Virus record (IMG/VR): IMGVR_UViG_2681813261_000006
Origin: a virus
Taxonomy: Duplodnaviria > Heunggongvirae > Uroviricota > Caudoviricetes
Length of the DNA: 9,829 nucleotides
Strand: one strand, 5' to 3'
Both the position numbers and the translations under genes were made by a program. Below are positions 1,723-9,739 of this stretch, one piece after another. The notes below the pieces were generated by a model. That model was given only the letters and a program-made list of their open reading frames with translations, was not told where the DNA came from and did no database searches. Within the stretch, counting starts at the first letter, position 1. Every line of letters starts with the position of its first letter.

Positions 1723-2157
1723 TCAATTCAAGTACTCCAATAGTTCCTGTACTATTCCGAGTAGTCTTTTTTTATCCTTTGCATTTGGTGATCTAATCTT
1801 ACTCATCATTGCCAGATTCAAACATTCCGGTTTAAGCATCTGATGAAGGATCAGTATTGCCTCTACAATCATTACCTCTCGCATAGTTGCGAAGCACCAT
1901 AGAATCGTTTTTGAGTACTGTTCACCATTTTCAATTTTGTTTTTAACGACATTGGAACTACTGAGGTACTCACGCCAGCCATTTTCCTTTGAAGTGGGCT
2001 TTAGCTTTCTCGCATCCTTAACCCGCTGATAGATTTGCTTAGCACCGACATAATTAGAACCATCCTCAAACTGAAAGATATAAACGAAACCAGCATATTC
2101 ACCGGATAACATTTCCTCCTCGCTCCAATCATCCGAGTATTTCCATTCACTCATCAT
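1723..2157 (-). CDS. GIY-YIG-type nuclease domain protein, 144 aa, catalytic domain only
   Basis: Tandem ATG ATG at 2157-2152 with AGGAA about 5 nt upstream. Protein has GFVYIF then 10 residues then YVGAK, an Arg about 9 residues later, and a C-terminal helix REVMIVEAILILHQMLKPECLN resembling the catalytic-Glu helix and conserved Asn of GIY-YIG nucleases (compare UvrC N-terminus, I-TevI). No DNA-binding domain is recognisable. Confidence 0.55.
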   Translation of the reverse strand: MMSEWKYSDDWSEEEMLSGEYAGFVYIFQFEDGSNYVGAKQIYQRVKDARKLKPTSKENGWREYLSSSNVVKNKIENGEQYSKTILWCFATMREVMIVEAILILHQMLKPECLNLAMMSKIRSPNAKDKKRLLGIVQELLEYLN

Positions 2158-2193: not shown

Positions 2194-2643
2194 ATGAGCG
2201 ATTTAAAAACACGATTAAAAGAATATGAAGGTACTAAAGAGTATCAGGCAAATTTGAAGTACTTCAGAAATGGGAAATTCTATCCATATGCTGATAGTTT
2301 AGGATGTAGTACTATTGGATATGGTCACTTAATTCAGGCGGGAGAAGATTTTAGTACTGGCATTACTGAAAGCGAAGCAGACAAGTTACTATCTCGCGAT
2401 TTAGCCAAAACAATTATGCAGGTACAGACATTAGGGTTAAATCTTCCCGATGACTGGAATGATTTTATTATTATCATGACCTTCCAGTTAGGTATTGGCG
2501 GGGTGAAGAAATTCCGTAAGATGTTAGCAGCCCTGAAAGCACATGATTACCTTGAAGCAATTAAACAGGCTAAGTGTTCTCTATGGTACAGGCAGACACC
2601 AAACCGTGTGAATTCCATGATTGCAGTACTTAAAAACAAATAA
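2194..2643 (+). CDS. Endolysin, T4-type lysozyme (glycoside hydrolase family 24)
   Basis: 149-aa ORF with ATG at 2194 and AGGT 9 nt upstream. Collinear with T4 lysozyme: EYEG, then YADSLGCSTIGYGH (Asp and Thr of the catalytic region, TIGxGH motif), ITESEADKLLSRDL, MTFQLGIGGVKKF, and C-terminal SLWYRQTPNRV (compare WYNQTPNR). Stop TAA 2641-2643 is followed by a terminator hairpin. Confidence 0.9.
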   Translation: MSDLKTRLKEYEGTKEYQANLKYFRNGKFYPYADSLGCSTIGYGHLIQAGEDFSTGITESEADKLLSRDLAKTIMQVQTLGLNLPDDWNDFIIIMTFQLGIGGVKKFRKMLAALKAHDYLEAIKQAKCSLWYRQTPNRVNSMIAVLKNK

Positions 2644-2645
2644 AG

Positions 2646-2683
2646 AAAAGGCATAGTACGAATGACATACTATGCCTTTTTTT
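2646..2683. terminator. Bidirectional rho-independent terminator between convergent genes
   Basis: Perfect 9-bp stem GGCATAGTA (2650-2658) pairing with TACTATGCC (2668-2676), 9-nt loop, T7 tract 2677-2683 on the plus strand and A-rich run 2644-2649 (T-rich on the minus strand). Sits between the lysozyme stop and the minus-strand 90-aa gene stop (2682-2684). Confidence 0.6.
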
Positions 2684-2954
2684 ATGGTCGTTGTTTCTGC
2701 TGAAGAATTGCAATAATCCTTTCAATCTTAACATCAAGTTCATGGATTTGTGTTTCCAGTTTACTTAGTGTATCTCTCATCTTATCCTGATCATCCTCAA
2801 TACGGGAAATACTACTTTCCAGTACAGCAATGGTAGTTTCAAGAGTAGCAACGCGAGTTAATAGATCATTCGTATCCTTTGTATTATCTCTAAAGATAGT
2901 ATAAAGGAATACGCATCCAGAAATAACAAGAGCTAAAATAGCACCGATATCCAT
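2682..2954 (-). CDS. Small membrane-anchored coiled-coil protein, 90 aa; candidate i-spanin-like or superinfection-exclusion-like protein, function unknown
   Basis: ATG at 2954-2952 with AAGGGA about 7 nt upstream. N-terminal hydrophobic segment IGAILALVISGCVFLYTIF (residues 3-21), then a charged heptad-patterned helix (LLTRVATLETTIAVLESSISRIEDDQDKMRDTLSKLETQIHELDVKIERIIAIL). This predicts a type II membrane topology. Confidence 0.6.
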   Translation of the reverse strand: MDIGAILALVISGCVFLYTIFRDNTKDTNDLLTRVATLETTIAVLESSISRIEDDQDKMRDTLSKLETQIHELDVKIERIIAILQQKQRP

Positions 2955-2965
2955 ACTGAAATCCC

Positions 2966-3013
2966 TTTGTTGTTATTGTTATTGTTATTGTTATTGTTAT
3001 TGTTATTGTATTA
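2966..3013. repeat. Hexanucleotide tandem repeat: six perfect GTTATT units (2972-3007) plus degenerate flanking units; (AATAAC)n on the minus strand
   Basis: Directly visible: tttgttg then six GTTATT units then gtatta. It fills most of the 56-bp intergenic space between the 218-aa gene stop (3011-3013) and the 90-aa gene RBS/ATG (2954). Confidence 0.9.
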
Positions 3014-3667
3014 ATACCCTGTAAATGTCGCCAATGCTATCTGGATACCATTATTCCCCATTGCCTGGCGGTAGGTTTTCTGGTTCTTTGAAACGTACTG
3101 TAGACTGAATGAAGTACTGGAATTACGCCTGATAACCAGACCAGAGTACCCAATTACTGTACCATCATCTGATATGTTCCCCGGACATTGTGACCAGCAG
3201 AACCAGGGATCAGCTACTGGAGACGTTACCGTAATGGCAGTACTGAGATCGGTAGCCGCAGGTGCTGTCAAAAATCCCCTGATACGTGGCATTGTTGCCG
3301 CTGATGCAGCAGACCAGATTAAAGTACCTTCTTCACTGAACACATCAAGAAAACCAGATGTGGGGGTAGCCGTGTGACTACTTGTCATGAACCTGCCCAT
3401 GCCAGGCTGGAACATATAGGCACCAGGGAAACACCATGCCCCGTCTTTCTGTATCTGGAACCAGTACTGTGTTGTGTTCCTGTTAGCTACTACTGATGGC
3501 ATAACGAAACCGAGCGATCCACCATTACCGAAGGCACAGGTAAAGCCTGTGTAGTATCCCGTATCAGTTAGATTTCCCATGGCCTTTACTGCACCCGTCA
3601 TTATCGACTTGTTAGTACTATCTATAGTCAGTGCACCCGCTGAATTATATACCTCGAAACCTGCCAT
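3011..3667 (-). CDS. Putative tail-associated protein, 218 aa; distal paralog of the 98-aa gene
   Basis: ATG at 3667-3665, 1 nt after the TAA of the preceding gene (TAAgATG). Rich in Gly/Ser/Thr/aromatics with 6 Cys. N-terminus MAGFEVYNSAGALTIDSTNKSIMTG parallels the neighbour's MAQGLQCWNAAGVLVVDLTDYNIRFMG. Position is directly downstream of the J-like gene. Confidence 0.6.
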   Translation of the reverse strand: MAGFEVYNSAGALTIDSTNKSIMTGAVKAMGNLTDTGYYTGFTCAFGNGGSLGFVMPSVVANRNTTQYWFQIQKDGAWCFPGAYMFQPGMGRFMTSSHTATPTSGFLDVFSEEGTLIWSAASAATMPRIRGFLTAPAATDLSTAITVTSPVADPWFCWSQCPGNISDDGTVIGYSGLVIRRNSSTSFSLQYVSKNQKTYRQAMGNNGIQIALATFTGY

Positions 3668-3668
3668 C

Positions 3669-3965
3669 TTACGCCGTCCACTTATATACGTTAAAAGTGT
3701 AGTTACCAGCTAACGGTGCATATGTTGGCAAATAAACCGCAGTAAATGACCCATTATTACAAAAGGCTGACCACTCATTAAAGGTATCACTGGCGGGGGC
3801 ATAGTGTACAAACCAGCCTGTAGTTTTCATATTTGGTACTGATACAGTATAGGTCTGTGCAGAAGTAGCCTTGACAGTATAAGTACCCATAAAACGTATG
3901 TTATAATCAGTCAGATCTACTACTAATACACCCGCTGCATTCCAACATTGTAATCCCTGTGCCAT
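3669..3965 (-). CDS. Putative tail-associated protein, 98 aa; proximal paralog
   Basis: ATG at 3965-3963 with AGGAG 8 nt upstream. Beta-rich composition. Shares the N-terminal MAxGxxxxNxAGxLxxDxT pattern with the following 218-aa gene. Confidence 0.55.
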   Translation of the reverse strand: MAQGLQCWNAAGVLVVDLTDYNIRFMGTYTVKATSAQTYTVSVPNMKTTGWFVHYAPASDTFNEWSAFCNNGSFTAVYLPTYAPLAGNYTFNVYKWTA

Positions 3966-4122
3966 AGCTCTTACTCCTGTAAATCCTTTTCTTCATTCCA
4001 ATTGTTTCTTTTCCGCTAATACTGAATGGGTTAGTACTGGTACTATTGAAAGTACGTTCATTAGATTTCATTTATGTATCCTTTTGAAATGAGGTTACAG
4101 TTAATAATCCCTGAATTATTTA

Positions 4123-7821
<3,699 letters not shown>

Positions 7822-7822
<1 letters not shown>

Positions 7823-8445
7823 TACTTGTATTTCCAGTTCTGATTTTGATTAACTTGACCTAACAGACTAAAGTACTCATCATTTCTATAGTAAGATTGA
7901 TATACTGAGTTGGCGGCAATTAATGCAGGTTGTCTGTCTAATTTCTTATAGACAGAATTCACATATATAGTCATTTCGTTTTGCTTCTGATTTGGATCAG
8001 TTACTGCCTGTACATAGTCAATAAACCCCGTAAACATGAGCATTGAATCAATTACAGTACTATCATATGGATTGAGAATTACTAACTTGATATTCATCTG
8101 TGCATCTTTCAAGAAACCACCAAGGGCAAGAGCACGAACCGAGGCGTTTACATTGCTAATTTTAAAATTGATAGCATCATTAGACATGCCCTTTTGTTCA
8201 GAATATGAAGGTAATGAACCACTGATAATGTCGGGGAAACTTATGTACTTATAACCATCCAGATCTATATCAATTAGTGAATCCGTCCAGTGAAAACCAT
8301 TAGTACCTTTTGGTAGTACATCAAAACAAGTAACATTAACGCCTAAGCTCATAATTTCCATTAGTGTTAATCTTGTCTTGGTTGTACCTCTGACTAACTT
8401 CCAGTACTTAAGAAGATTAGCATTAGTATATATACCTGAGTCCAT
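7822..8445 (-). CDS. Minor tail protein, L-like, 207 aa
   Basis: ATG at 8445-8443 overlaps the M-like stop (TAATG). Segment order loosely parallels lambda gpL (LMEIMSLGVNVTCFDV against LWEIDLTEVGGERYFFCN), but the C-terminal Cys cluster of lambda L is absent. Assignment rests mainly on position between M-like and K-like genes. Confidence 0.5.
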
Positions 8446-9002
8446 TAGATGATATTCTCCGTTGCTTTCAATGTAATATTCATGATGTTCCCAATAGGCA
8501 ATGAATAATCATTGTCTGGATCTAATACAGCCTCGATCATGAGATTGTTATATTTGAGTGCTTCACTTGCCTGTACTGTATTTTGTAGAGCAGGGAAAAT
8601 AGTAATTGAAGTACTGGTACGTTCTACGATTCGATATAGCTTATTGTGATTGGAAAACTGTACCCACTCACCCACAGCTAATGTGTTAGTACTGATAGGT
8701 ACAACCATATTACCCGGTTTAGTGAGAGCAGTAGCGGTTACTGCACCAGTCTGTTTACCGTAATATGTACCTGCAAGCCCCAATGACATAGTGAAAGGTT
8801 TGCCCTGTGCATATTGAGCTAAAAAGCTATTCACTTCATTTAGTGATGCAGGATTAAAATTAAGGGTGAACTGAATTTGATAGTATTGAATTCCAGTACT
8901 TCTCATGATACGTTGACCTGTCCATGTTTGATTAGAATAGATCGGTTCAGTACTTTTAATTTGAAAGTTCGTTACTTTTATTTGATTTGAAAAGGATGCC
9001 AT
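8445..9002 (-). CDS. Minor tail protein, M-like, 185 aa
   Basis: ATG at 9002-9000 with GAGGT (plus 9009-9013) 6 nt upstream. Segment YQIQFTLNFNPASLNEVNSFLAQYAQGKPFTM parallels lambda gpM YSVTLSVPREEATVLESFLEEHGGWKSFLW. First gene of the tail-tip operon in this window. Confidence 0.55.
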   Translation of the reverse strand: MASFSNQIKVTNFQIKSTEPIYSNQTWTGQRIMRSTGIQYYQIQFTLNFNPASLNEVNSFLAQYAQGKPFTMSLGLAGTYYGKQTGAVTATALTKPGNMVVPISTNTLAVGEWVQFSNHNKLYRIVERTSTSITIFPALQNTVQASEALKYNNLMIEAVLDPDNDYSLPIGNIMNITLKATENII

Positions 9003-9102: not shown

Positions 9103-9739
9103 ATGTTGTTATTTGCAGGCCAAATAGGCTATAACGCATATGATAAATGGAAAGAAAGTTCAGATGATGTTTTTAAGATGCGTGTAATCTTATTGAGCGA
9201 AATCAANNNNNNNNNNNNNNNNNNNNNNNNNNNNNNNNNNNNNNNNNNNNNNNNNNNNNNNNNNNNNNNNNNNNNNNNNNNNNNNAATAGGCTATAACGC
9301 ATATGATAAATGGAAAGAAAGTTCAGATGATGTTTTTAAGATGCGTGTAATCTTATTGAGCGAAATCAACAATAACCTTTTAGCTCTTGCTACTGGTGGC
9401 GATGAGTCTCAGGTGTTAGGCACATATGAAATATGTATTCCTCTTCCAACTGAAGATACAGAAGCTATTAAAAGAGTAGCAACTGCCGTTTCTTATTTGC
9501 ATGATGATGTATATTATTCCCAATTAGAAAAATTAGCATCACTCCCAAAAAAAGAAGTAGATGCCATCGTAAAGAGTTATTATTCATTATCGAGATTACG
9601 TACTCTTTCAACACAGCTTGCATACAATATTAAATACTCACCACCTAAAGTTAAATTATTGCGGGAAGAGTATTACAATCTCTATACCCTTTCATCTTCT
9701 CTTTCACAATATTTGTCTTATCACACGGAAAATCCCTAA
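9103..9739 (+). CDS. Hypothetical protein, oriented opposite to the tail operon; reading frame interrupted by the N-run at 9207-9285
   Basis: The ORF-track start at 9004 is a TTG one nucleotide from the divergent ATG of the M-like gene, so it is unlikely; the first in-frame ATG is 9103. The two track ORFs (9004..9297 and 9341..9739) join into one frame only if the 84-bp duplicates flanking the N-run are collapsed, giving ...DDVFKMRVILLSEINNNLLALATGG... Stop TAA 9737-9739. No family recognised; no clear Shine-Dalgarno for any candidate start. Confidence 0.4.
9123..9369. repeat. Exact 84-bp direct repeat (9123-9206 and 9286-9369) flanking the N-run; probable unmerged contig overlap
   Basis: Both copies read aataggctataacgcatatgataaatggaaagaaagttcagatgatgtttttaagatgcgtgtaatcttattgagcgaaatcaa; identity stops exactly at the N boundaries. 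Confidence 0.9.
9207..9285. other. Run of 79 N (scaffold gap, probably artefactual)
   Basis: Directly visible; flanked by identical 84-bp sequences. Confidence 0.99.

What the first reader, a model, noticed from the sequence alone, without database searches (positions are those of the whole stretch)
3011..3965. Tandem paralogous genes after J with a shared N-terminus and divergent C-termini
The 98-aa and 218-aa ORFs are separated by 1 nt (TAAgATG). Both begin with a similar roughly 25-residue segment (MAQGLQCWNAAGVLVVDLTDYNIRFMG against MAGFEVYNSAGALTIDSTNKSIMTG) and then diverge completely. Both are beta-rich (Gly/Ser/Thr/Tyr/Trp). A conserved N-terminal docking module with variable C-terminal domains, placed right after the J-like gene, is the pattern of receptor-binding or fibre accessory proteins. 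Two specificities on one tail tip would be worth testing. I could not match either protein to a known family by eye.
Basis: partly seen in the sequence, partly recalled or inferred. Interest (0 to 1): 0.6.

Follow-up and report, generated by a model that had tools for sequence, protein, structure and literature searches.

The report
Two-protein receptor-binding module after J
The two small genes after the tail-tip gene J are a widespread, always-paired "small + large" cassette that most likely forms the phage's receptor-binding tip, and the N-terminal stretch they share is a short hairpin motif that also ends J itself, which suggests how the tip is attached.

Summary
The ORFs, the 1-nt spacing (TAAgATG) and the shared N-terminus are real. 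Pairwise BLASTP does not support the similarity (E=5.4). Family profiles do (hhalign P=8e-6 to 6e-5), but over only about 16-19 residues.

The window is a Shigella sonnei prophage. The pair is a conserved, tightly coupled cassette found after J in HK639, Drexlerviridae, and Cronobacter, Xanthomonas, Stenotrophomonas and Acinetobacter phages.

orfA (98 aa, phrog_7961) is a lectin-like beta-sandwich. It is also homologous to the small protein of FhuA-type loci.

New here: the shared motif (G-h-Q-x-W-D/N-x-x-G-x-L-x-V-D) occurs three times per cassette (orfA N-terminus, orfB N-terminus, orfB ~107-119). It also matches the extreme C-terminus of J (P=1.9e-6; 0/200 shuffles).

Best reading: one heteromeric receptor-binding module docked on the J trimer through hairpins, not two separate specificities. 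This is a known kind of locus, with a testable attachment model. No virion or binding evidence was available.

The parts
4123..7425 (-). J-like central tail fibre / tail tip protein, 1100 aa
   Evidence: phrog_31 'central tail fiber J' 1.6e-61; Pfam Phage_Tail_Tip (res 927-1019), Phage-tail_3, fn3. The last ~280 aa are 31-34% identical to the J of HK639, IsaakIselin and SG01, which carry the same cassette.
4126..4185 (-). Extreme C-terminus of J ([20 protein letters not shown]), a hairpin-type motif matching the cassette motif
   Evidence: Conserved as [16 protein letters not shown] at the C-terminus of J in window, HK639, Bas10, SG01, Yut1, phiXacJX1 gp18 and the Acinetobacter myophage P1. 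It also ends the 307-aa protein upstream of single-chain P0230. hhalign against the small-protein N-terminal motif: P=1.9e-6, 16 columns; 0 of 200 column shuffles reach the score.
3966..4122 (-). 157-nt J-orfA spacer with Shine-Dalgarno AGGAG 8 nt before the orfA start
   Evidence: Sequence. No convincing promoter or terminator lies in the spacer. A 54-aa ORF (3907-4071) overlaps it and is probably spurious.
3669..3965 (-). orfA, 98 aa: small subunit/adaptor of the receptor-binding cassette (phrog_7961)
3885..3956 (-). Hairpin motif copy 1 (orfA residues 4-27, GLQCWNAAGVLVVDLTDYNIRFMG)
   Evidence: G4 and G12 are 99% conserved, D17 94%, D20 90%, W8 87%, R24 80% across 86 representatives. AF2 strands 6-8 and 14-17, with lower pLDDT (67-73) than the core.
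3011..3667 (-). orfB, 218 aa: large subunit, probable receptor-binding protein (Pfam DUF8377 / phrog_4524)
3620..3661 (-). Hairpin motif copy 2 (orfB residues 3-16, GFEVYNSAGALTID)
   Evidence: hhalign orfA family vs orfB family P=8e-6. Motif-HMM score 5.8 here and up to 15.3 in relatives. It is a conservation peak of the family, 3.4 bits per column.
3275..3358 (-). Hairpin motif copy 3, internal (orfB residues 104-131, SGFLDVFSEEGTLIWSAASAATMPRIRG)
   Evidence: Invariant S104 G105 V109 G114 W118 A120 P127 R128. The best hhalign hit of both the orfB N-half and orfA lands here in register (P=0.006 and 0.025). The motif HMM hits the homologous site in relatives: AbaP1 14.6, HK140 gp23 12.5, TacPo2 9.3, Bas10 7.7. 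44 of 74 family members score >=2, against 0.8% of shuffles. The window's own copy is degenerate and was not reported by the HMM. The AF2 strand pattern 108-110/116-119/128-135 mirrors 5-7/13-16/23-29.
2970..3009 (.). Hexanucleotide tandem repeat (TTGTTA x6.7; ACAATA on the coding strand) between the orfB stop and the RBS of the next gene
   Evidence: TRF, 100% matches. Copy number is 2-10 in six S. sonnei loci. It is adjacent to the cassette and is not shown to be part of it.
2682..2954 (-). 90-aa N-terminal TM + coiled-coil protein, last gene of the operon (function open: spanin-like or exclusion protein)
   Evidence: KD19 hydropathy 2.42 at residues 3-21. Weak phrog_739 'Rz-like spanin' 2.7e-5. 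Weak DUF2730. No similarity to the signal-peptide protein bas10_0024.
2646..2680 (-). Terminator-like hairpin closing the J-orfA-orfB-orf90 transcription unit
   Evidence: 15-bp stem followed by a T-run, directly after the orf90 stop and facing the convergent lysozyme gene.

Best explanation
orfA and orfB are the two subunits of one distal receptor-binding module carried at the tip of the trimeric J central fibre of a Shigella sonnei prophage.

Shown:
(1) They are a conserved small+large gene pair, tightly coupled, found immediately after J-type genes in many phage lineages.
(2) orfB belongs to DUF8377/phrog_4524. This is the same family as the large protein of the locus that tracks with use of the TonB-dependent transporter YncD in Drexlerviridae.
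(3) The predicted fold of orfB resembles the experimentally solved LptD-binding RBP encoded at the same genomic position in phage Oekolampad.
(4) orfA is a lectin-like beta-sandwich. It is homologous to the small proteins of both YncD-type and FhuA-type loci.
(5) The segment the two proteins share is a ~14-24-residue beta-hairpin motif. It is present three times per cassette and, in a related form, at the very C-terminus of J.

Inferred:
- orfB contacts an outer-membrane protein receptor, most likely YncD or a similar TonB-dependent transporter, through its less conserved regions.
- orfA is a virion-borne adaptor or second subunit.
- The three hairpins of one orfA:orfB heterodimer pair with, or continue, the three C-terminal hairpins of the J trimer. 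This would fix an asymmetric binder onto a threefold fibre and transmit the binding signal to J.
For: Synteny and coupling:
- HK639_24/25 lie directly after J and overlap each other by 4 nt.
- IsaakIselin bas10_0026/0025; NBD2 gp62/63; Cronobacter SG01, phiXacJX1 gp20/21 and Yut1.
- Acinetobacter myophage P1 genes 45/46 follow a 2740-aa tail protein; Pantoea TacPo2 39/40.

Homology:
- orfB is 36-44% identical at 100% coverage to 58 phage records; orfA is 26-42% identical in the full-length matches among 42 phage records, most of them the same records, with the two hits adjacent in those listed in both tables.

Literature:
- IsaakIselin and IME347 use YncD, and receptor specificity maps to the locus downstream of gpJ (PMC8594841).
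- Four locus-encoded families track FhuA, BtuB, LptD and YncD, each with 1-2 accessory proteins. For RobRod40 the large protein (CDS_0026) is named as the FhuA RBP (bioRxiv 10.64898/2026.04.02.716166).

Structure:
- AF2 models have pLDDT 86.5 and 85.2.

Motif:
- hhalign P=8e-6 for orfA vs the orfB N-terminus.
- Internal copies score up to 14.6, where no shuffle of 4000 reaches 12.
- The J C-terminal profile vs the motif profile gives P=1.9e-6, and 0 of 200 shuffles reach it.
- P0230 is a natural single-chain 313-aa protein with significant motif copies at 4-27 and 205-215 and a by-eye candidate near 108. It is encoded right after a 307-aa protein that ends in the J-type hairpin.

Other:
- No TM segment or signal peptide in orfA or orfB.
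- Both motif copies in orfB and the one in orfA have lower pLDDT than the cores, as expected for partner-dependent elements.
- In the LptD RBP the conserved residues and the N-terminus sit in a 'base' of loops and beta-hairpins facing the tail (PMC13035648). That end is poorly ordered when isolated (PMC12685063).
Against: - There is no direct evidence that either protein is in virions or binds J or a receptor, here or for any family member. The literature assignment for the YncD type rests on genomic correlation and AlphaFold3 modelling.
- I could not tell from the text which gene of the YncD locus the preprint calls the RBP (Bas10 'CDS_0024').
- Sequence links to the LptD family (DUF6453) are not significant (P 0.002-0.03; internal thirds P~0.18).
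- The window's own internal motif copy is degenerate and was not reported by the motif HMM.
- No co-fold could be run, so the heterodimer and the hairpin docking are inference.
- One recent paper guesses a superinfection-exclusion role for the FhuA-type pair (PMC13164509).
- In several S. sonnei strains J is broken by IS elements, so the module may be non-functional in its present host.
Confidence: 0.62

Rival explanations
1. orfB is the only virion protein (RBP). orfA is a non-structural chaperone or assembly factor that helps orfB fold or attach and is then released, in the manner of tail-fibre assembly proteins.
For: orfA is small and always encoded just upstream of orfB with tight coupling. 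[quoted passage not shown] Nothing shows orfA in virions.
Against: orfA carries the same hairpin as orfB and as the J C-terminus, and that hairpin is its most conserved part. Its fold is a lectin/tailspike-type beta-sandwich that also matches the Oekolampad RBP. A natural single chain of 313 aa joins an orfA-like N-terminal module to later motif copies, which argues that the small module is part of the final structure.
Confidence: 0.17
2. Two independent receptor-binding proteins share a docking N-terminus and give the tail tip two specificities.
For: Both have the docking-type N-terminal motif followed by unrelated sequence. Both have folds seen in receptor-binding domains.
Against: The pair never occurs as alternatives. 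It is always one small plus one large gene in fixed order. The small proteins are homologous across FhuA-type and YncD-type loci, while only the large proteins differ. Phages with such loci show single terminal-receptor dependence; for example, Bas10 depends on YncD only.
Confidence: 0.06
3. The pair are membrane or superinfection-exclusion proteins expressed in the lysogen. [quoted passage not shown]
For: Annotation of RobRod40 and HK140 homologues. Speculation in PMC13164509. FhuA-type loci are linked to cor.
Against: No signal peptide, lipobox or TM segment: maximum 19-residue hydropathy is 0.92 and 1.16. The predicted folds are soluble all-beta and match tail-spike/RBP domains. The pair is co-oriented with J in one terminator-closed unit. 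It is present in strictly lytic phages. The motif is shared with the C-terminus of J.
Confidence: 0.05
4. The N-terminal resemblance is a chance or compositional match between two unrelated beta-rich proteins.
For: Pairwise BLASTP E=5.4. The segment is short.
Against: Profile-profile P=8e-6. An HMM trained only on small proteins finds the large-protein sites at fixed positions, far above 4000 composition-matched shuffles. The motif recurs in Xanthomonas, Stenotrophomonas and Acinetobacter cassettes.
Confidence: 0.03

Closest known systems
YncD-type 'bona fide RBP locus' downstream of gpJ in Drexlerviridae (IsaakIselin Bas10 bas10_0026/0025/0024; JohannLBurckhardt; IME347; NBD2 gp62/63/64)
   Same: Same two protein families in the same order. 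orfB is 35.6-37% identical at 100% coverage, and orfA 31-33%. The J C-terminal ending is the same...VYDxNGVLRVRMGLF. These phages need YncD (PMC8594841).
   Different: In Drexlerviridae the locus is convergent with J and has a third, signal-peptide gene. Here the pair is co-directional with J and is followed by an unrelated TM/coiled-coil gene. The host element is a 38% G+C Shigella prophage. Its J N-terminal two-thirds resemble J of 100-140 kb phages. The receptor is untested.
HK639_24/HK639_25 and related lambdoid coliphage pairs (LMessi, CharmingMan, Flotzy, Eeyore, LLS)
   Same: Closest phage homologues, 38-42% identity for both proteins in most of them (orfA 35% in LLS). In HK639 and LLS the pair is annotated directly after J on the same strand; in HK639 the genes overlap.
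   Different: These are annotated only as hypothetical proteins, and no receptor is known from the sources I read.
FhuA-type locus of T1, HK022, HK140, N15, phi80, RobRod40 (small 'outer membrane protein' + large 'membrane associated protein' + cor)
   Same: Same architecture: a ~100-aa gene plus a ~225-aa gene, overlapping by 1 nt, after J. The small protein is homologous to orfA (iE 3.6e-6; phrog_2427). The large protein carries the internal hairpin at the same place (HK140 gp23 109-121, score 12.5).
   Different: The large proteins are not otherwise alignable with orfB. A cor lipoprotein gene is present. The J terminus is a variant...ISVxDxNxxLRVQxGRLTGV[YF]. The receptor is FhuA.
LptD-binding RBPs of Rtp (Rtp44), AugustePiccard, Oekolampad (Pfam DUF6453; PDB 9RPT)
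   Different: It is a single chain. Sequence relationship is not significant. orfA and orfB do not hit PF20051. The receptor is LptD, and there is a lipoprotein exclusion partner, Rtp45.
T5 pb5 on the pb4 central fibre
   Same: A dedicated, non-covalently attached RBP sits at the end of a trimeric straight fibre. In both cases the fibre-RBP interface is unresolved (PMC10038345; PMC8594841).
   Different: No sequence or fold match to pb5 was seen in any search. pb5 is a single 640-aa chain encoded elsewhere in the genome.
Lambda J C-terminal domain binding LamB directly
   Same: The same tail-tip protein family carries the receptor-binding function at its distal end.
   Different: In lambda the binding domain is part of J. 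Here J ends in a short conserved hairpin and the binding function is, by inference, delegated to separate gene products.

Membership tests
RBP locus downstream of gpJ, YncD type (Maffei 2021; bioRxiv 2026.04.02.716166) | Encoded directly downstream of the J homologue | tested here: met
   orfA starts 157 nt after the J stop, on the same strand, with no intervening gene.
RBP locus downstream of gpJ, YncD type (Maffei 2021; bioRxiv 2026.04.02.716166) | >30% amino-acid identity and ~full coverage to the locus protein of phages with experimentally shown YncD dependence | tested here: met
   orfB vs IsaakIselin 35.6%, IME347 37.0%, JohannLBurckhardt 36.5%, all at 100% coverage. The criterion is quoted.
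RBP locus downstream of gpJ, YncD type (Maffei 2021; bioRxiv 2026.04.02.716166) | Infection depends on YncD | not testable with these tools
   Needs plating of an induced or rebuilt phage, or of HK639, on a yncD knockout.
RBP locus downstream of gpJ, YncD type (Maffei 2021; bioRxiv 2026.04.02.716166) | Product is a virion component attached to the J tip | not testable with these tools
   No proteomic or structural data were found for any member. The T1 cryo-EM study did not resolve the distal J or any RBP.
RBP locus downstream of gpJ, YncD type (Maffei 2021; bioRxiv 2026.04.02.716166) | Cognate superinfection-exclusion gene in the locus (frequent, not universal) | tested here: inconclusive
   The next gene (2682-2954) is a TM + coiled-coil protein with no similarity to bas10_0024. 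It has weak spanin-like hits.
Pfam DUF8377 (PF28254) | Match to the family model over the whole protein | tested here: met
   A precomputed PF28254 hit is on record for this exact 218-aa protein and for all 77 relatives. The model is absent from the local Pfam copy, so I could not rescore it.
PHROG phrog_4524 (orfB) and phrog_7961 (orfA) | Full-length profile match | tested here: met
   phrog_4524 1.6e-54, residues 1-217 on profile 1-230. phrog_7961 9.1e-16, residues 1-89 on profile 1-95. Both are annotated 'unknown function'.
Pfam DUF6453 (PF20051), LptD-binding RBPs (Rtp44, RBP-Oeko) | Sequence match to the family | tested here: not met
   No Pfam hit at E<=0.01. hhalign of orfB vs the DUF6453 alignment gives P 0.011-0.033. 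The best sub-comparison gives P 0.0018.
Pfam DUF6453 (PF20051), LptD-binding RBPs (Rtp44, RBP-Oeko) | Same fold as the solved RBP (9RPT chain C) | tested here: inconclusive
Cor/Llp-type or other membrane exclusion proteins | Signal peptide, lipobox or transmembrane segment | tested here: not met
   Maximum 19-residue Kyte-Doolittle hydropathy is 0.92 (orfA) and 1.16 (orfB), and there is no N-terminal signal-like segment.
T5 pb5-type RBP | Sequence or fold similarity to pb5 | tested here: not met

The most novel reading that the evidence does not exclude
RBP loci after J that the 2026 preprint treats as unrelated families may share one attachment principle. This covers the FhuA and YncD types and, more tentatively, the LptD type; the BtuB type was not examined.

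The binder would be built from three modules. Each module opens with the same beta-hairpin that ends each chain of the J trimer. The three modules are supplied either by one chain (about 310 aa: P0230, perhaps Rtp44/RBP-Oeko) or split 1+2 (about 100 + about 220 aa: orfA+orfB, the T1/HK022 pair).

The three hairpins would form a pseudo-threefold layer that continues the three J C-terminal hairpins. This would resolve the 3:1 symmetry mismatch between a trimeric fibre and an asymmetric receptor binder. It would also define a portable plug for swapping receptor specificity.
Probability: 0.3. Interest if true: 0.72.

Novelty: new member of a known kind. Interest (0 to 1): 0.48.

Why it matters
How a single asymmetric receptor-binding protein is fixed to the threefold central fibre of T1-, T5- and lambda-like siphophages is unresolved. 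The distal fibre and the RBP were invisible in the T1 and T5 tail-tip maps.

This analysis found a short, strongly conserved hairpin in four places: at the C-terminus of J, at the start of the small protein, and twice in the large protein. That gives a concrete model that can be tested by mutation.

If the model holds, it names the residues that must be kept when receptor modules are transplanted between phages to retarget them. It would also link loci that are currently annotated as unrelated hypothetical, 'membrane' or 'tail fiber' proteins.

For the window itself, the practical result is an annotation: a receptor-binding cassette of a Shigella sonnei prophage, with a predicted TonB-dependent-transporter (YncD-like) receptor.

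Tried and rejected
- Megablast of 2600-4200 against INPHARED phages and against complete E. coli genomes: no match. The element is a Shigella sonnei prophage, found only by exact-protein look-up.
- Pfam-A local copy and NCBIfam: nothing for orfA or orfB. DUF1513 at 0.0066 is below the cutoff and was ignored.
- PDB sequence search:
  - Nothing for the orfB profile or for the FhuA-type pair.
  - The orfA profile gave about 86 weak antibody VH hits (best E 0.0016). I treat these as a beta-sandwich or database-abundance artefact, not homology.
- Long proteins hit by the orfA profile (P0170, P0172 and others, 8-11 stretches on positions 27-97) look like Ig-repeat adhesins and were not pursued.
- P0190 (242 aa) is a J C-terminus joined to a small-protein N-terminus, apparently a miscalled or read-through product of the HK639-type overlap. 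It is not a true fusion.
- Three-repeat structure inside DUF6453: the alignments are in register, but P is about 0.18, so this is not claimed.
- The Cronobacter 'tail fiber' paper concerns the lateral fibre and is not relevant.
- A search for virion proteomics of NBD2 found nothing usable.
- T5 papers do not describe a pseudo-threefold pb4-pb5 interface, because that interface is unresolved.
- A co-fold of J with orfA/orfB could not be run.
Full report
**1. What is in the window**

All tail genes lie on the minus strand.
- A gpM-like gene (8445-9002), a gpL-like gene (7822-8445) and a DUF6950 gene (7418-7822).
- A 1100-aa J-like central fibre gene (4123-7425; phrog_31, Phage_Tail_Tip, fn3).
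- orfA (3669-3965, 98 aa) and orfB (3011-3667, 218 aa).
- A 90-aa TM + coiled-coil gene (2682-2954), then a strong terminator-like hairpin (2680-2646).
- The hairpin faces a convergent T4-type lysozyme gene.

orfA is preceded by AGGAG. Its stop and the orfB start read TAA-g-ATG.

**2. Origin**

The DNA has no megablast match in INPHARED phages or in complete E. coli genomes. The exact orfB protein is carried by many Shigella sonnei assemblies, for example HE616528.1 and CP026802.1. There it sits in a prophage next to mipA and gapA. In several strains J is split by IS elements while orfA and orfB stay intact. Excluding the masked N runs, the window is 38% G+C.

**3. The shared N-terminus**

Pairwise BLASTP is not significant (E=5.4). 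I built family alignments: A1 for orfA (13 sequences) and A2 for orfB (23 sequences).
- hhalign aligns MaQGLQCWnaaG-lvVD with MS-GFqvyNsaGaltID at P=5.7e-5. Against the N-terminal half of orfB it gives P=8.2e-6.
- Across 86 representatives of the small-protein family (clusters at 50% identity), residues 1-27 carry 2.69 bits per column against 1.32 for the rest. G4 and G12 are 99% conserved, D17 94% and D20 90%.

The similarity is real and covers about 16-19 residues. It is the most constrained part of the small protein.

**4. The pair is a conserved cassette**

tblastn finds orfB relatives in 58 phage records and orfA relatives in 42. These are mostly the same records, and in those listed in both tables the two hits are adjacent. 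Examples:
- HK639_24/25, directly after J, overlapping each other by 4 nt.
- IsaakIselin bas10_0026/0025 and NBD2 gp62/63, convergent with J.
- Cronobacter SG01, Xanthomonas phiXacJX1 gp20/21 and Stenotrophomonas Yut1.
- Acinetobacter myophage P1 genes 45/46, after a 2740-aa tail protein.
- Pantoea TacPo2 39/40.

The order is always small then large. Spacing runs from a 4-nt overlap to a few bases, plus one gap of about 47 nt in SG01.

**5. What the literature says about this locus**

- Maffei et al. matched allelic variants of the locus downstream of gpJ to the terminal receptor of small siphoviruses. IsaakIselin and IME347 use YncD (PMC8594841).
- A 2026 preprint confirms that four locus-encoded families track FhuA, BtuB, LptD and YncD. 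It defines families by >30% identity and notes one or two accessory proteins.
- The preprint's table names the large protein of RobRod40 (CDS_0026) as the FhuA RBP.
- By the preprint's criterion, orfB (36-37% identity, full coverage to IsaakIselin, IME347 and JohannLBurckhardt) falls in the YncD family.
- For the FhuA-type pair, a 2026 paper found no Foldseek or HHpred hits and guessed an exclusion role (PMC13164509).
- The T1 and T5 tail-tip structures did not resolve the distal fibre-RBP junction.

**6. Families and folds**

- orfB is phrog_4524 (1.6e-54) and Pfam DUF8377, from a precomputed PF28254 hit.
- orfA is phrog_7961, and it also hits phrog_2427.
- BFVD Foldseek links orfB only to uncharacterised 218-290-aa phage proteins.
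- Neither protein has a signal peptide or TM segment.
- The orfA profile detects the FhuA-type small protein HK140 gp22 (iE 3.6e-6). The orfB profile sees the FhuA-type large protein only at one short site.

So the small subunit is conserved across receptor types. The large subunit is the one that differs between them.

**7. The motif occurs three times per cassette**

The most conserved stretch of DUF8377 is S104 G105 V109 G114 W118 A120 P127 R128. It reads GF-LDVFSEEGTLIWS, which resembles the N-terminal GFEVYNSAGALTIDS.
- The best hhalign hit of the orfB N-half and of orfA against the orfB C-half both land there, in register (P=0.006 and 0.025).
- I built an HMM from the N-termini of small proteins only. 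It hits large proteins at their N-terminus and at an internal site near residues 105-123.
- Internal-site scores: AbaP1 14.6, HK140 gp23 12.5, TacPo2 9.3, Bas10 7.7.
- In 4000 composition-matched shuffles, a score >=6 occurs in 0.075% and a score >=12 never.
- Of 74 DUF8377 members, 44 score >=2 at that fixed site, against 0.8% of shuffles scoring that anywhere.
- The window's own internal copy is degenerate and was not reported by the HMM. It occupies the homologous alignment columns.
- The AF2 strand pattern repeats: 5-7/13-16/23-29 and 108-110/116-119/128-135. All motif copies have lower pLDDT than the domain cores.
- Both copies are conservation peaks of orfB.

**8. A single-chain version**

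The representative search returned P0230, a 313-aa protein. It has significant motif copies at 4-27 (score 26.3) and 205-215 (score 14.7), and a by-eye candidate near residue 108 that the HMM did not report. Its length is close to orfA+orfB (316 aa) and to Rtp44 and RBP-Oeko (311 and 309 aa). DUF6453 proteins show conserved motif-like segments at residues 1, ~114 and ~208. Their sequence relation to orfA or orfB and their internal repeats are not significant, so I treat the LptD link as structural resemblance only.

**9. The same hairpin ends J**

- J of every cassette-bearing phage examined ends in [16 protein letters not shown]. This holds from enterobacterial siphophages to Xanthomonas and Stenotrophomonas phages and an Acinetobacter myophage.
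- The 307-aa protein encoded just before P0230 ends ...VIKVYDSGGTLRVKIGDLSA.
- A profile of eight such C-termini aligns with the small-protein N-terminal motif: [16 protein letters not shown] with LQCWNAAGVLVVDLTD, at P=1.9e-6.
- The observed score is 22.1, against 7.9 +/- 2.3 for 200 column permutations. None reaches it.
- FhuA-type and LptD-type J proteins end in variants of this segment. This fits the preprint's remark that the J C-terminal tip co-varies with the RBP type.

**10. Mechanism**

Shown: points 4 to 9 above.

Inferred:
- orfA and orfB form one heteromeric receptor-binding module.
- orfB's less conserved regions (about 20-100 and 132-153) bind an outer-membrane protein, probably YncD or a similar TonB-dependent transporter.
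- The three hairpins dock on, or extend, the three C-terminal hairpins of the J trimer. This would attach an asymmetric binder to a threefold fibre.

This agrees with the 'base' of hairpins that holds the N-terminus and the conserved residues in LptD RBPs. It also agrees with that end being disordered when the RBP is isolated.

Nothing here shows virion incorporation, complex formation or receptor binding. A co-fold could not be run.

**11. Verdict**

The locus is a new, divergent member of a known kind, namely receptor-binding loci after gpJ, YncD-type family, DUF8377. The added value is the repeated hairpin shared with the J C-terminus. I found no description of it in the papers read. It turns the open question of RBP attachment into specific, testable predictions.

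Noticed in passing
window 2970-3009: Perfect hexanucleotide tandem repeat (TTGTTA x6.7; ACAATA on the coding strand) between the orfB stop and the RBS of the 90-aa gene. Copy number is 2, 5, 5, 6, 7 and 10 in six S. sonnei loci, so it is a strain-variable VNTR. It may alter spacing or expression of the downstream gene.
   Followed up: partly
window 2682-2954 (-) and 2646-2680: A 90-aa protein with an N-terminal TM helix (possible ISGC lipobox but no basic n-region) and a coiled coil. It has weak Rz-like spanin and DUF2730 hits and is followed by a 15-bp-stem terminator. It could be a spanin or lysis component beside the lysozyme, or the locus's exclusion protein. It is unrelated to bas10_0024.
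   Followed up: partly
L008, L009, L011, L012 (S. sonnei loci homologous to window 4123-7425 and neighbours): In several S. sonnei strains the J gene, the tape-measure gene or the orfB-orf90 spacer is interrupted by IS elements (rve/HTH_Tnp_1 transposases), while orfA and orfB remain 100% identical. The prophage is decaying in its host.
   Followed up: no
window 4123-7425: J is mosaic. Residues ~60-1060 are closest (30% identity) to a protein of the 141-kb coliphage DCP80 and to 100-kb Vibrio phages. The last ~280 residues resemble J of lambdoid and T1-like phages that carry the same cassette.
   Followed up: partly
window 1723-2157 (-): A SegE-like GIY-YIG homing endonuclease gene (Pfam 2e-16) sits inside the prophage, next to a T4-type lysozyme (2194-2643 +). 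This is unusual company for a lambda-like tail module.
   Followed up: no
window ~140-450, ~520-810, ~9200-9290: Runs of N (652 bases in all) mask parts of the window. ORFs listed across them are artefacts.
   Followed up: no
window 3907-4071 (-): A 54-aa ORF overlaps the orfA start and fills the J-orfA spacer. It is called as a gene in some S. sonnei annotations. It has no family hit and is probably spurious.
   Followed up: no
L013 (Acinetobacter phage vB_AbaM_P1) 4001-5004; L014 (Pantoea phage TacPo2) 3995-4944: The same small+large cassette occurs in a contractile-tailed Saclayvirus, after a 2740-aa tail protein that ends in the J-type hairpin. It also occurs in TacPo2 directly after an 11-tRNA array rather than after J.
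   Followed up: partly
orfA family profile (A1, A4): The small-protein profile gives many weak hits to antibody VH domains (QGLEW...YAQRFKGRVTIT, best E 0.0016). It also hits multi-repeat Ig-like proteins of 1100-3900 aa at positions 27-97. This is probably a generic beta-sandwich resemblance.
   Followed up: no
L018 4194-6061 (metagenome contig Ga0531548_0001878): A 307-aa fibre-like protein ending in the J-type hairpin is followed by a single-chain 313-aa protein (P0230) with significant motif copies at 4-27 and 205-215. This is a compact version of the J tip + RBP arrangement in a different phage type.
   Followed up: partly
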